Source: Stylophora pistillata
Lineage: Eukaryota
Reading direction: 5' to 3'
NCBI RefSeq assembly: GCF_002571385.2
Contig: NW_019217885.1
Location: 260,207 to 324,206 of the forward strand
Length of the DNA stretch: 64,000 nucleotides
Numbering within the stretch: position 1 is the stretch's first letter; every line of letters begins with the position of its first letter. This document shows, one piece after another, positions 12,001 through 64,000 of the stretch. Made by a program: the position numbers.

Positions 12001-15000
12001 TAGGGTCGAAATTAAATGGTTTTTGACTCCCTAGAAGCGAAAAGAGACGCTCAGAATTTGTTAGCTCTTTCCACGCGCAAGACTGAGCGCAAATTTGAAT
12101 ATTAATTTTGAAATTCTTTGTAATTCAAATGAGTTTTCCGACTTCAATGGGCGTGTTCAACATAATCGACATCGAATTTCAGCTCACTACACAACTGACA
12201 GTAATATATTGAACCATTAGGTTTATTTTGTTTCGGCTGAGCACCAGCGTACAATAATGAAGAAAAACATATACAAAACCGTTGCATTCTCAGTAATCGT
12301 CATTACAGCACACGACAAAACGACATACCGAGAGGTATGGTGGAGGATTCTAGTTGCGTTACAATAAAATTTGCCTGATCCTCTTAAGCTCTGTAATATT
12401 ATAATTTAGGATCCCTCCCCCGTTGGCAGTAAATTTTCCCTTATACTCTTTTGGCGACGACTGGTGCTCCTGCGTTCCCCCTGAAAACCATATGATCCCT
12501 CTGTAATCCTCCGGTCCTCCAGGAGAGAAATAATGATTAGTCCATAAGTTACCATATTTCCTTGAATAAACGCCCACCCCCGAGGTCATCATATCAAAAG
12601 AGCGCCCCCTTCGAATAGGCGGTCCCCCCTCCTCCCTCACTTTTTGAAATAGTAGGGAAACGGGGGAAACTGTTTTTATTACCACTTTATTTACAACTTT
12701 TTAAGCTTCAACCGCGTATTAGTACAGATTGTTTTTTTGTTTTTTTTAATCAGCGCCCTCCTCTCCTTTAGCCGAAATTTAAAATAAGCGCCCGAGTAAA
12801 ATATGGCTTCTGCTACTAGTCAGTGATTATCGGATCTGTTTTTCATTTCTAAGGGCATTTCGAAGAAACAAGGTGCTGCTGTGTTTTAATCTGCCCAGCT
12901 GTCGTACGAACAACCGTCTATGTCACTTTTAAAACTTTGAATCCCTTTTCTATCCAGTTGAGTATTCTCACGTACATTCTCCTTTCCATTTGTGAGATCT
13001 AAAGAGGTGTTCATTGGCCAAGAATAGAGCAAAAGAAGGAAAGAGCACCGTGTCGTCCGCCCGGAAAAACGCCAATTTGGATAGAGCTGATCTCTCCAAT
13101 TACTTAAATAGAAATTTCCACCTTTGCCACCCCCTCAGATATTTGTACAGAAGACAACAGCTCGACTCTTTGGACAGAACCAAACCTTGTAGGCGAGGAA
13201 AGGGATAATGCGTCAAATCAGAGTTCAATGCATAAATCAATCAAAATGGAGTGACTGAGTGAGTGAATTTTAGGTCACATTCCTGAACCTCGTAACATAA
13301 CTAATGCCATACCATGGGGTAAAAAGTAAGAAAAAAAAAAAAAAAAAAACCCTAACAATGTCATTTCACTCCAAAATAATTAAATAAATAAGATTAATAG
13401 GTCACAGACCTACAAAGGGTTCAGCAGTCTTTTTTATTTTTAAGTTCATCTTTGAAAGTGAACGCCAACAATATCTCGTGCACCTCTCTTGTTACTTGTC
13501 GTTAAATATATAAAACATCGCAGCAATAGGGGTTTCCCTTGAATAAAGCTAACAAAAACTCGGGTTGATAAGAAAAAGGTTCAGAGATTTTTCTTAATCA
13601 ACCACAGCTTATCTGGAAGACTTGTAAATGAACAAGTACTCACAAAAAAATTCGCTTTGACATGTTCATAACATTACAATAGCGTGAGTAAGTCTTGCCA
13701 CAAGTTTGTCACCTACTTGAGGGAGATTTCGAATTCCCACTAAACCTCATAATTTCTACTGCCTTTGTCTTATTTTTCAACCAAGCTGATATTGGGATAA
13801 GGGTTTTTTACTCGCCTGATATTAATTAAGTCTGACTAGTCAATCCTCAAATAACCTTAGAGACGTCCTTATTTCTGCGGAGTGACATTTCAGTTTAAAA
13901 TTACCAAGCTAAGGTTTAGTAGTACAGTATTAAGATCATCTACAAGACGCTTCCAGATTTTAAAATGTCTCAAAAAGGCAGTATTTCCTAGTGTGGTGAG
14001 CTAAAATATCTTTCACAGTTTACGAAAAATGTTGTTCTTGTTTTATTTCGCTTTAATTCGGCCACTACTAGAGATAAGTTTTTAACTTGGAAAAACAGGA
14101 ACCCCTTGTCTCCGCGCGATTATTAATTGCCGTTAGCACCTTCTTTAACGCGATAATTTATAAAAATAATAGAATAATTCTCTCTTGTTTTCTGTCATAC
14201 ATCTGCTGGTGATCCGCTTCTCTTGACTGTGATCATTTTTTGACGGACAACTGCAAACACCACAACACACAGCAGAGCAAACATTCCGAGGACGAAAGAA
14301 ACACCCAACAAGGGGTGCTGGCCTGGAGAATCTGAGGATGGAGGAGAAATCAATACCACGGTTATTTTAGGACATAAAAATTCAATTTTCTAAAGAAATT
14401 AGAATGATATGGGTTTTACTCTTCTGCTTCTCGTGATTGGCTGTGAAAGCTTGTATTAGCGTTTTGGACCAATCAAAGGCAAAACTGAGACAGTCGTACC
14501 AGTCTCCCTCGCTCGAAGCCGATTACGTGTATTTGATGCCTCTTTACCTCTTTGTAAGATTTCCCTATGTCGTGATTGACCTTGATTATTGACGTTGATT
14601 ATTGACCTTGATTATTGACTTTGGTTATTGACCTTGGTTATAACTTTGGTCTTGATTTTTCGCCAAAAAAACTTACAAACAAACAAACAAAACCTCCAAA
14701 TTACAACCATAAATAATTATAAAAGATTTGTCACTTTTTTTCCTACTATAAAGAGAAAAGATAGAAAAAATTAAAGTATCTAGTATTCTTCTTTTTATAA
14801 TTTTCCACCTCTTCATTAATTCATAAACGAGTTTGCTATTACAATCTACCAGATTAATTATCATTATTGAAAATATCATTCTTAATTCAATACCTTTAAA
14901 TTGTTCAGGGTTCGTTAACCAAATAGGGCCATGGCTGAGTAACGTGGTGTGCACAGGTGCACTATATGGAAGGGCTCTGCGATGGCGGTTCCTGGGAAGT

Positions 15001-63000: not shown

Positions 63001-64000
63001 TGTGCAGTTTCTTCCATTGCCCCGATAGCCACTGAGACAGCGACAGATGTACGACCCGTCAGTGTTGTTACACAGCGCTTTGCGATCACAATCGTTCGTG
63101 TTAGGGTTTGCACACTCGTCAACATCTGCAAATAGAAGAAAATATTTGGTTTCACTCTCATCTTAGGAACGGAGCTACTGAGACAATAGTACTCTCCATA
63201 TCTTACTAGCTTTGCTTTAGTGCATATATACCTTCCCAGCATAAAGTGTACCTTTCAGAAAATTGTTACTTTTTTTGTAGATGTATTAATTTTTTTTTTC
63301 TGCTTGACGAAGAAAGCATTCTATCCTTAAGTACCAAACAATGTTTATTCCACTATCTACTTATCACAACAAACAAGTTACCTTGACAATTTCCTGCCTC
63401 TCCAGCATACCCAGGGGCACAACTGCAGGAGAAAGAACCAACTGTGTTCACACATTTCTCATTGGCGCCACACGCATCTTTCTCTGCGCATTCATCAATA
63501 TCTGTTAAAGGAGAAATAAGGAAGGATGACGGTTAGTGCAAGACAAGGAAAATACGCTTAAGTTACCTTAAGACCTCTCAATTCAGTGCATGAATTTTAA
63601 GTTCCGTCAATATATAACAAATAAATCCATTTTACAAAGTTCAATTGTATAGGTTTAATATAGTTCACCTTATAAATATTTTTACCTCGGCATGTCTGGC
63701 CATCACCATTAAAACCTTGTTTGCATCTGCACATATAACTTCCCAGGGTGTTAGAACAATTTCCATTAACATCGCAAGAGTTCTCGCCATTTTCGCATTC
63801 GTCGACGTCTGTACCAGAGAACAAAGAAAATATACCTTACATGATATCGCCTGCTGACAATTTCCAGTGGAAAGAACCCTTGTGCTTAAGTTGTTATGAG
63901 AATAATTGACAAGGATAGTTGACTGGCAGGATTGCTGTCTCATTTTAGGAATGAAATTCGTTCAAGGATGTTTTTAGTCGACCAAGTGTTCACGCTAGAC

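What the first reader, a model, noticed from the sequence alone, without database searches (positions are those of the whole stretch)
14195..63808. Giant EGF-VWA-ZP membrane-anchored protein with at least 92 EGF modules
Seen in sequence: 90 EGF exons, a VWA domain, 2 EGF, a ZP module, furin site, EHP, TM and a short tail. That is over 4,200 aa, and the gene is still open at the window edge. Established: Drosophila Dumpy and C. elegans FBN-1 are giant EGF+ZP apical-matrix tethers, and ZP proteins such as uromodulin polymerise after cleavage at the consensus site. Inference: this is a cnidarian-type ZP filament carrying very long, acidic, Ca2+-binding EGF arms. It is a candidate for mucus/apical matrix, tissue-to-skeleton attachment or skeletal organic matrix. 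Automated pipelines would probably split it into 'fibrillin-like' and 'uromodulin-like' fragments.
[Added by the scan's program, not by the reader: the finding's places include an assembly gap (unread letters, written N; its length is only estimated) at 15748 to 15758, 48393 to 48766. Whether the letters on both sides are continuous or in frame is not known: test that first.]
Basis: partly seen in the sequence, partly recalled or inferred. Interest (0 to 1): 0.75.

Follow-up and report, generated by a model that had tools for sequence, protein, structure and literature searches.

The report
Giant EGF–VWA–ZP membrane protein gene
The minus strand of this window carries most of one very large gene for a membrane-anchored matrix protein made of about 90 calcium-binding EGF modules, one VWA domain and a zona-pellucida module; it belongs to a known kind of giant surface-matrix protein, and one stretch of its ZP-C part is interrupted.

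Summary
On the minus strand, from 63808 down to the stop codon at 14195, I find 90 six-cysteine EGF modules (0 on the plus strand). 89 of the 90 sit in their own symmetric phase-1 exon. One VWA exon follows 88 of them, then 2 more EGF exons, a ZP-N exon, ZP-C exons, an RHRR furin-type site, a 22-residue hydrophobic anchor and a 16-residue tail. That is about 4,125 codons, and the 5' end lies outside the window.

- The ZP-C profile match stops at position 75 of 133. The same frame then runs through a 57-nt stretch with 2 in-frame stops, which is either damage or a mini-intron.
- At least 7 further EGF-like pieces are defective: 2 lack one cysteine, 1 has a stop, and 4 are decayed.
- The VWA lacks the DxSxS metal-site motif.

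All three assembly gaps inside the finding fall in modelled introns, and the exon phases match across them.

Paralogous exons show dN/dS of about 0.18 and are far better conserved than their introns, so the array is or recently was coding. One gene or two (a possible break at 45.7-49.2 kb), the organism, and the function could not be tested. The closest kinds are Dumpy, FBN-1 and uromodulin-type EGF-ZP proteins. This looks like a new variant of a known kind, of moderate interest.

The parts
49180..63808 (-). 5' EGF block: 28 six-Cys EGF exons of mixed types (clusters B, C, D and singletons), each a phase-1/phase-1 exon. The gene continues beyond 64000.
57372..57497 (-). EGF exon with splice sites and frame kept but only five Cys (Cys4 lost)
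   Evidence: module HMM 53.5 bits
55635..55691 (-). decayed EGF fragment (second half of a module only)
   Evidence: module HMM 18.1 bits
45661..49179 (-). 3.5-kb interval without EGF signal. It holds the assembly gap 48393-48766. It is either a modelled intron or a possible gene boundary.
   Evidence: no Pfam family in 4 stop-free stretches; no EGF HMM hit; not repeated elsewhere in the window; 1 weak start-exon candidate, at or below the background rate
22440..45660 (-). 3' EGF block: 59 six-Cys EGF exons, mostly one type (clusters A and E). Includes a 236-nt exon+intron tandem unit x9.9 at 35049-37362.
43136..43219 (-). decayed EGF pseudo-exon (Cys3 lost, second half diverged)
41444..41607 (-). 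decayed EGF fragments in two frames
34205..34318 (-). EGF exon in frame with a phase-1 donor but only five Cys (Cys6 lost)
   Evidence: module HMM 67.9 bits
32076..32174 (-). decayed EGF module (Cys1 and Cys6 lost, no matching acceptor)
   Evidence: module HMM 43.6 bits
27242..27364 (-). EGF exon with both splice sites kept and 1 in-frame stop codon
22116..22232 (-). last module before the VWA. The second half is a normal EGF; the first half is replaced by TG-rich text, with no phase-1 acceptor next to it.
21499..22041 (-). VWA domain in a single phase-1/phase-1 exon of 543 nt, with no DxSxS motif
   Evidence: Pfam VWA E 2.7e-15, profile 15-164 of 174; PDB best hit proximal thread matrix protein 1, 4cn8, E 1.4e-7; Atlas VWA clusters 0.96; the low-confidence model still matches VWA/I-domains; DxSxS 0 matches
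20688..20798 (-). EGF exon (non-calcium-binding type)
20058..20180 (-). calcium-binding EGF exon
   Evidence: Pfam EGF_CA E 7.4e-11
17346..17625 (-). ZP-N exon (3 Cys; the fourth is the first codon of the next exon)
   Evidence: Pfam ZP-N E 2.7e-12; PDB TGFBR3 7lbg E 8.6e-4; phase match read
16246..16551 (-). linker plus first half of ZP-C
   Evidence: Pfam ZP-C E 4.6e-16, profile 3-75 of 133; PDB uromodulin 6tql E 7e-5, then ZP2, GP2, TGFBR3, choriogenin H; Atlas ZP-C clusters 0.96
16189..16245 (-). 57-nt stretch in the same frame as the exons on both sides. It holds 2 in-frame stops and has GT...AG ends. It is either damaged coding sequence or a mini-intron.
16156..16188 (-). small ZP-C exon of the splice model (33 nt)
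   Evidence: read; splice dinucleotides checked; no statistical support of its own
14894..15087 (-). last ZP exon: 3 Cys, an RHRR furin-type site at residue 34 of 64, then a hydrophobic EHP-like stretch
   Evidence: no PDB hit on its own at E<=10; no ZP Pfam hit for the enclosing stretch
14195..14331 (-). final exon: 22-residue hydrophobic anchor, 16-residue tail, stop codon
15748..15758 (.). assembly gap inside the modelled intron between the small ZP-C exon and the last ZP exon

Best explanation
This is the 3' 50 kb of one very large gene for a type-I membrane precursor of an extracellular matrix protein.

Shown: the protein is built from about 90 tandem calcium-binding EGF modules, each on its own interchangeable phase-1 exon. 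These are followed by a VWA domain without the DxSxS metal-site motif, two more EGF modules, a ZP-N/ZP-C module, an RHRR site, a hydrophobic patch, a membrane anchor and a 16-residue tail.

Inferred from how ZP proteins of this layout work:
- The precursor reaches the cell surface.
- A furin-type protease cuts at RHRR and removes the patch and anchor.
- The freed ZP module polymerises or cross-links into the apical matrix.
- The long acidic EGF arm, stiffened by calcium, projects from it as a rod. It would be roughly a quarter of a micrometre long if each module adds 2.5-3 nm (a recalled figure).
- The VWA near the base serves as a protein-binding site.

Its role would be that of a mechanical tether or scaffold of a surface matrix, as for Dumpy and FBN-1.

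The array grew by tandem duplication of exon+intron units, and it is shedding exons as well as gaining them.
For: Architecture. In one search, the 150 minus-strand stop-free stretches of >=60 aa without N between 14 and 64 kb gave EGF-type families, VWA, ZP-N and ZP-C, plus 3 minor single- or two-member matches (GPR158/179 extracellular, S-locus glycoprotein, ADGRF3 N-terminal).

Splice coherence:
- 89 of 89 modelled EGF exons end in G, and 84 of 89 begin with AT or AC. Any exon can therefore follow any other and make an Asp codon.
- The VWA, ZP-N, ZP-C and final exons fit in phase.

Coding constraint:
- The nearest paralogous exon pairs have median dN/dS 0.18.
- dN<dS in 42 of the 42 pairs with a defined dS, out of 49 pairs.
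- Exon identity is 81%, against 56% and 53% for the 70 nt on either side (background 48%). The exon is the best conserved in 48 of 49 pairs.

Calcium binding and charge: both consensus halves in 79 of 90 modules; D+E 16.2% against K+R 5.1%.

Processing signals: RHRR fits the Arg-X-Lys/Arg-Arg site that passages of PMC4890752 place between ZP and TM in anthozoan ZP proteins. There is a 22-residue hydrophobic stretch.

Precedent: Dumpy and FBN-1 have EGF arrays, a C-terminal ZP, a furin site and a TM, and act in epidermis-to-apical-matrix attachment (passages of PMC2930355, PMC4395870). A coral transcript called a ZP-EGF protein is expressed aborally and then in the future calicoblast layer (passages of PMC3204972).
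Against: - No transcript, orthologue or protein evidence was available. The one-gene model rests on phase compatibility alone.
- The ZP-C profile match ends at 75 of 133. The direct continuation has 2 stops. The splice model that avoids them leaves ZP-C about 19 codons short of the profile length.
- The last ZP exon has no significant match on its own.
- The best ZP-N match is TGFBR3, whose ZP module is not known to polymerise (the property is recalled).
- One exon with intact splice sites has a stop, and two lack a Cys.
- The N-terminus and signal peptide are outside the window.
- Single-sequence structure models were poor: pLDDT 50.5 for the VWA and 35.9 for ZP-N.
Confidence: 0.6

Rival explanations
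1. There are two or more genes. An EGF-only gene would cover the 5' block (63.8-49.2 kb). A separate EGF-VWA-ZP gene would start somewhere in the 45.7-49.2 kb interval.
For: - The two blocks hold different module types: clusters B, C, D and singletons against A and E.
- They are separated by the longest EGF-free interval, 3,518 nt against a median intron of 285. That interval contains a 374-N gap that could hide a terminal or first exon.
- AATAAA motifs occur on the minus strand in the interval.
Against: - The exons flanking the interval are both phase 1 and would join in frame.
- Only 1 weak signal-peptide-like start-exon candidate lies in 3.5 kb, against 16 in 23.5 kb and 21 in 14.5 kb elsewhere in the array. 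That is not above background.
- No Pfam family was found in the interval's open stretches.
Confidence: 0.2
2. The locus, or this allele of it, is a decaying gene. The ZP-C exon has been hit by 2 nonsense changes, and the array is littered with dead exons. Either no full-length membrane-anchored protein is made, or only a truncated secreted one.
For: - 2 in-frame stops lie in the 57-nt stretch, which sits in the same frame as both neighbouring ZP-C pieces.
- Counting that stretch as coding brings the remaining ZP-C length to about 57-58 codons. That equals the 58 unmatched positions of the 133-position Pfam profile.
- 1 EGF exon has a stop, 2 lack a Cys, and 4 or more are decayed.
- The module next to the VWA is disrupted.
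Against: - All other non-EGF exons are open over 46 to 181 codons.
- 89 of 90 six-Cys modules keep both splice sites.
- dN/dS is 0.18, though this measures past rather than present constraint.
- The stretch has GT...AG ends and a length divisible by three, so it can be removed in frame. Introns of 72-90 nt exist elsewhere in the gene.
- Defective symmetric exons can be skipped without a frame change.
Confidence: 0.15
3. The ZP module does not polymerise. The protein stays on the membrane as an adhesion or co-receptor molecule, like betaglycan or endoglin, and the EGF array is a ligand-binding stalk.
For: - The best solved-structure match of the ZP-N exon is TGFBR3 (E 8.6e-4). TGFBR3 also appears among the ZP-C matches (E 0.047-0.053).
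- The ZP-C is atypical.
Against: - The best ZP-C matches are the filament formers uromodulin, ZP2 and GP2.
- A furin-type site followed by a hydrophobic stretch sits exactly between ZP-C and the anchor. That is the layout tied to release and polymerisation in passages of PMC4890752 and in the abstract of PMC4755741.
Confidence: 0.1

Closest known systems
Drosophila Dumpy
   Same: A giant extracellular protein with a very long EGF array, calcium-binding EGF modules, a single ZP domain and a transmembrane domain at the C-terminus. Its exons can be left out by alternative splicing (passages of PMC2930355).
   Different: [quoted passage not shown] Here the modules are plain EGF exons abutting with a one-residue linker. 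No other repeat family was found. A VWA domain sits before the ZP module.
C. elegans FBN-1
   Same: [quoted passage not shown]
   Different: FBN-1 (2,781 aa) has long Ser/Thr-rich regions and no VWA. Here there are more than 4,100 codons in the window alone, no Ser/Thr-rich region was seen, and a VWA is present. Orthology could not be tested.
Uromodulin / GP2 type EGF-ZP proteins, including cnidarian genes annotated 'uromodulin'
   Same: The ZP-C exon is closest in sequence to uromodulin, ZP2 and GP2 among solved structures. EGF modules lie upstream of a ZP module, with cleavage-dependent polymerisation (abstract of PMC4755741; listing of PMC7486124). Genes annotated as uromodulin are reported from sea anemones and corals (passages of PMC12549020, PMC6626399, PMC4320547).
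   Different: Those proteins carry a few EGF modules, not about 90. No D8C-type family was found here. The anchor here is a TM segment with a cytoplasmic tail.
Mollusc EGFZP shell-matrix proteins and coral skeletal ZP proteins
   Same: EGF plus ZP plus TM with a furin site (mollusc EGFZP, passages of PMC9290575). Signal peptide, ZP, an R-X-K/R-R site and TM in coral skeletal matrix proteins (passages of PMC4890752). A coral 'ZP-EGF protein' transcript is expressed aborally before settlement (passages of PMC3204972).
   Different: These are all small proteins. None is described with a long EGF array or a VWA. The supplementary alignments of PMC4890752, which might allow one, are closed.
Fibrillin / LTBP and poly-EGF proteins such as fibropellins
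   Same: Long tandem calcium-binding EGF arrays with one-residue linkers and one exon per module. Poly-EGF and fibropellin-like proteins are noted in the sea-anemone matrisome (passages of PMC12549020).
   Different: No TB/8-Cys domain family was found in the window. Fibrillins have no ZP module or TM.

Membership tests
ZP-module proteins | ZP-N domain | tested here: met
   Pfam PF23344 E 2.7e-12, above cut-off; TGFBR3 ZP-N E 8.6e-4
ZP-module proteins | complete ZP-C domain | tested here: inconclusive
   PF00100 E 4.6e-16, but only profile positions 3-75 of 133. The continuation has 2 in-frame stops. The last ZP exon has no hit on its own. The joined model was not searched.
ZP-module proteins | eight conserved cysteines (abstract passage of PMC13361971) | tested here: inconclusive
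   Exon model: 3 Cys in the ZP-N exon, 2 adjacent at the start of the next exon, 1 later in that exon and 3 in the last ZP exon, making 9. Which of them match the conserved positions was not established for the last four.
ZP-module proteins | furin-type cleavage site between ZP-C and the anchor | tested here: met
   One R-x-[KR]-R match (RHRR) at residue 34 of the 64-codon last ZP exon. The consensus is as quoted in PMC4890752.
ZP-module proteins | external hydrophobic patch after the cleavage site | not testable with these tools
   A hydrophobic stretch follows RHRR by reading. No profile or structure test was possible on this short exon.
ZP-module proteins | C-terminal membrane anchor | tested here: met
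   A 22-residue uninterrupted hydrophobic stretch, then a 16-residue tail and the stop
Calcium-binding EGF | six-Cys EGF fold with both halves of the calcium-binding consensus (consensus recalled) | tested here: met
   EGF_CA in 87 of 90 modules. N-terminal half in 84 of 90, central half in 81 of 90, both in 79 of 90.
VWA domain | VWA profile / fold | tested here: met
   PF00092 E 2.7e-15; PTMP1 E 1.4e-7. Foldseek top hits are all VWA/I-domains, TM 0.45-0.60, from a low-confidence model.
VWA domain | MIDAS DxSxS motif | tested here: not met
   0 matches to D-x-S-x-S in the 180-codon exon. The Pfam match starts at profile position 15.
Dumpy | EGF-DPY-EGF triads and PIGSFEAST / proline-rich repeats | tested here: not met
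   Apart from 3 minor single- or two-member matches, only EGF-type, VWA and ZP families were found in 150 minus-strand stretches and in 90 exons. EGF exons follow one another with one codon after Cys6. Exons shorter than 60 codons outside the EGF set were not scanned.
Fibrillin / LTBP | TB (8-Cys) domains between EGF runs | tested here: not met
   No such family among the 16 families found
FBN-1 orthologue | sequence orthology | not testable with these tools

The most novel reading that the evidence does not exclude
It was built independently from about 90 fully interchangeable phase-1 cassette exons, so arm length can be tuned by exon skipping and by birth and death of exons. A stop-bearing piece of ZP-C coding sequence is caught in the act of becoming a 57-nt intron.
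Probability: 0.15. Interest if true: 0.6.

Novelty: new variant of a known kind. Interest (0 to 1): 0.38.

Why it matters
Giant EGF-ZP proteins anchor epithelia to the matrix they secrete in flies and worms. A counterpart with a different build (pure calcium-binding EGF arms plus a VWA) would show that this solution is either old or easily re-invented. It would also give a candidate for tissue-to-substrate or tissue-to-skeleton attachment in the source animal.

The locus is also a clean example of exon-array growth and decay. There are about 90 symmetric exons under purifying selection, with dead copies among them.

For genome annotators, automated models are likely to break here: at the gaps, at the stop-bearing exon, and at the interrupted ZP-C.

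Tried and rejected
I used stop-free stretches instead.
I did not pursue it by another route, so the second half of ZP-C has no profile test.
- The last ZP exon alone gave 0 solved-structure hits at E<=10.
- I considered an alternative reading of the ZP-C break using another frame that contains a Cys-Pro pair. I rejected it because it needs a 14-nt 'intron'.
- The stronger-looking pyrimidine-rich acceptor inside the last ZP exon is in phase 0. I found no phase-0 donor upstream to pair with it.
- Single-sequence structure models: the ZP-N exon reached pLDDT 35.9 and was not used. The VWA exon reached pLDDT 50.5 and was used only as weak support.
- The Atlas look-alikes confirmed the VWA and ZP-C families but gave no architecture or useful taxon.
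- Fetching solved-structure chains as sequences for a direct comparison was not possible.
- A scan for a signal-peptide start exon in 45.7-49.2 kb gave 1 candidate, no more than background.
- Literature: 0 papers in the searched library hold 'dumpy', 'zona pellucida' and 'cnidaria' together. No paper in the listings describes an EGF-array-VWA-ZP protein. That is a statement about those searches, not proof of absence.
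Full report
**What is there.** The window is about 39% G+C and has four N runs: 11272-11632, 15748-15758, one N at 40656, and 48393-48766. 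A six-frame scan for the six-cysteine EGF spacing found 90 non-overlapping modules, all on the minus strand and none on the plus strand. Scanned one by one, 90 of 90 match Pfam EGF_3, 88 match EGF and 87 match EGF_CA at E<=0.001. The gene therefore runs from right to left. Its 5' end lies beyond base 64000, because the first in-window exon (starting at 63808) opens with a phase-1 acceptor. The stop codon ends at 14195. Both limits of the finding are exact.

**Exon structure.** 89 of the 90 modules have an AG acceptor in phase 1 just before Cys1 and a GT donor in phase 1 one codon after Cys6.
- 63 of the 89 exons are 123 nt long.
- All 89 end in G.
- 84 begin with AT or AC.

Any exon can therefore follow any other. 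The junction then reads as an Asp codon, giving the usual one-residue linker before the calcium-binding motif. Introns between modelled exons range from 72 to 3,518 nt, with a median of 285. Exons were searched one at a time, and the joined step was left out. So the full chain, and the ZP module as a whole, were never tested as one protein.

**Non-EGF parts, in minus-strand order**.
- After 88 modules comes a single 543-nt exon (22041-21499) matching Pfam VWA (E 2.7e-15).
- Two further EGF exons follow (20798-20688 and 20180-20058).
- After a 2.4-kb intron with interspersed repeats and a 65-nt minisatellite comes a ZP-N exon (17625-17346; PF23344, E 2.7e-12).
- Next is a ZP-C exon (16551-16246; PF00100, E 4.6e-16).
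- Then a 64-codon exon (15087-14894) with three Cys, one RHRR site and a hydrophobic stretch.
- The final exon (14331-14195) has a 22-residue hydrophobic segment, a 16-residue tail and the stop.

The phases fit at every junction I read. Among solved structures:
- The VWA exon is closest to mussel proximal thread matrix protein 1 (E 1.4e-7).
- The ZP-N exon is closest to TGFBR3 (E 8.6e-4).
- The ZP-C exon is closest to uromodulin (E 7e-5), then ZP2, GP2, TGFBR3 and choriogenin H.

A scan of all 150 minus-strand stop-free stretches of at least 60 codons without N between 14 and 64 kb found EGF-type families, VWA, ZP-N and ZP-C. Beyond these there were only 3 minor single- or two-member matches: GPR158/179 extracellular domain, S-locus glycoprotein domain and ADGRF3 N-terminal domain. 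The modelled coding length in the window is about 4,125 codons, or about 4,250 with three doubtful exons.

**The gaps.**
- The 11-N gap lies inside the modelled 1,068-nt intron between the small ZP-C exon and the last ZP exon. Donor and acceptor phases agree across it.
- The 374-N gap lies in the 3,518-nt EGF-free interval between the exons at 49301-49180 and 45660-45536, both phase 1.
- No EGF-like signal touches the edges of the 374-N gap. The interval's open stretches match no Pfam family, and the interval is not repeated elsewhere in the window.
- Because every EGF exon is symmetric, hidden exons would not change the frame.
- The single N at 40656 is intronic.

*ZP-C is interrupted.* The ZP-C match covers only profile positions 3-75 of 133. 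The same reading frame continues through 57 nt (16245-16189) that contain 2 stop codons. It then reaches a short piece with the alternating aromatic pattern of a beta strand. The 57 nt have GT...AG ends and a length divisible by three, so they can be spliced out in frame. ZP-C is then about 19 codons shorter than the profile. Counted as coding, they bring the remainder to about 57-58 codons, the number of unmatched profile positions. I read this as formerly coding sequence that is now either damaged or used as a mini-intron, and I cannot tell which. Neither the small exon nor the last ZP exon has statistical support on its own.

*Some EGF exons are defective.* A profile built from the 90 modules finds further minus-strand pieces:
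- two exons in frame with splice sites but only five Cys (57372-57497 and 34205-34318)
- one exon with intact splice sites and 1 in-frame stop (27242-27364)
- one decayed module (32076-32174)
- fragments at 43136-43219, 55635-55691 and 41444-41607

The module next to the VWA (22116-22232) has lost its first half to TG-rich sequence and has no phase-1 acceptor.

*The VWA lacks the metal-site motif.* It has no DxSxS motif (0 matches), and its profile match starts at position 15.

**Is the array real coding sequence?** Yes, at least historically.
- Among the 65 modules of equal length, the 49 nearest-neighbour pairs have a median nucleotide identity of 82%.
- For the 42 pairs with a defined dS, dN<dS in all 42, with median dN/dS 0.18.
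- Exons are 81% identical, while the 70 nt on either side are 56% and 53% identical, near the 48% background. The exon is the best conserved part in 48 of 49 pairs.
- Tandem exon+intron units of about 236 nt occur 9.9 times at 35049-37362.
- The modules fall into a mixed 5' block of 28 (clusters B, C, D and singletons) and a 3' block of 59, mostly of one type. Cluster A has 56 members in all and cluster E has 4.
- 79 of 90 modules carry both halves of the calcium-binding consensus, which I recalled rather than took from a tool.
- The modules are acidic: D+E 16.2% against K+R 5.1%.

**Most likely working.**
- Shown: the domain order, the splice coherence and the coding constraint.
- Inferred: a type-I precursor is cut at RHRR, losing the hydrophobic patch and the anchor. 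The ZP module then polymerises or cross-links into a surface matrix. The calcium-stiffened EGF rod and the VWA link that matrix to other components.

This follows the layout described for anthozoan ZP proteins (passages of PMC4890752), uromodulin (abstract of PMC4755741), FBN-1 (passages of PMC4395870) and Dumpy (passages of PMC2930355). A coral transcript called a ZP-EGF protein is expressed aborally in the planula and then in the future calicoblast layer (passages of PMC3204972). That is a lead for function, not a tested link.

**Rivals.**
- Two genes split at 45.7-49.2 kb. The different module types and the long interval with a gap favour this. Phase compatibility, and a start-exon scan no better than background, argue against it.
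- A decaying gene or allele. The stops and dead exons favour this. The many long open exons and the skippable exon design argue against it.
- A non-polymerising, membrane-retained receptor of the betaglycan kind.

**What stayed unchecked.**
The open contig collection holds only bacteria and archaea.
- As a result no orthologue search, no organism placement and no check of existing annotation could be made.
The alignment of cnidarian ZP proteins in PMC4890752 (its S7 Fig) might bear on the ZP-C question.
- Literature searches turned up EGF-ZP proteins and giant EGF-ZP tethers. None had this EGF-array-VWA-ZP order. One search found 0 papers holding 'dumpy', 'zona pellucida' and 'cnidaria' together.

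**Verdict.** The finding is real and accurately placed. It is a new variant of a known kind of protein (giant EGF-ZP surface-matrix proteins). It is moderately interesting, and the integrity of its ZP-C part is an open question.

Noticed in passing
window 4768-5724 (+), perhaps with exons from about 1739: A neighbouring gene on the other strand encodes a Mab-21 / cGAS-like receptor family protein. Pfam gives Mab-21_C E 6.8e-14 and Mab-21 nucleotidyltransferase E 0.0019. The best solved-structure hit is 'cGAS-like receptor 1', 8gjy, E 1.9e-11, then MB21D2, mab-21-like 1 and cGAS. I did not examine the catalytic residues or the full exon structure.
   Followed up: partly
window 18347-18705: A 65-nt minisatellite, 5.5 copies at 97% identity, lies inside the intron between the last EGF exon and the ZP-N exon.
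   Followed up: no
window 28-232, 975-1236, 18670-18868, 19446-19711, 52766-52956: Interspersed repeat copies at 75-84% identity are shared between the upstream region, the EGF-to-ZP-N intron and one array intron. They are probably small transposon remnants. No Pfam family was found in the nearby open stretches I tested.
   Followed up: partly
window 41675-44368 (-): Within the 3' block, seven modules follow a three-module super-repeat: loop lengths between Cys1 and Cys2 of 3, 4 and 6 residues, in that order, about twice over. A decayed extra copy of the first type sits at 43136-43219.
   Followed up: partly
window 22440-22757 (-): Two adjacent EGF exons are separated by an intron of only 72 nt that happens to be open in the same frame. 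The result is a 133-codon stop-free stretch holding both modules.
   Followed up: no
window 47505-47638: A 44-nt tandem repeat, 3 copies at 95% identity, lies in the EGF-free interval.
   Followed up: no
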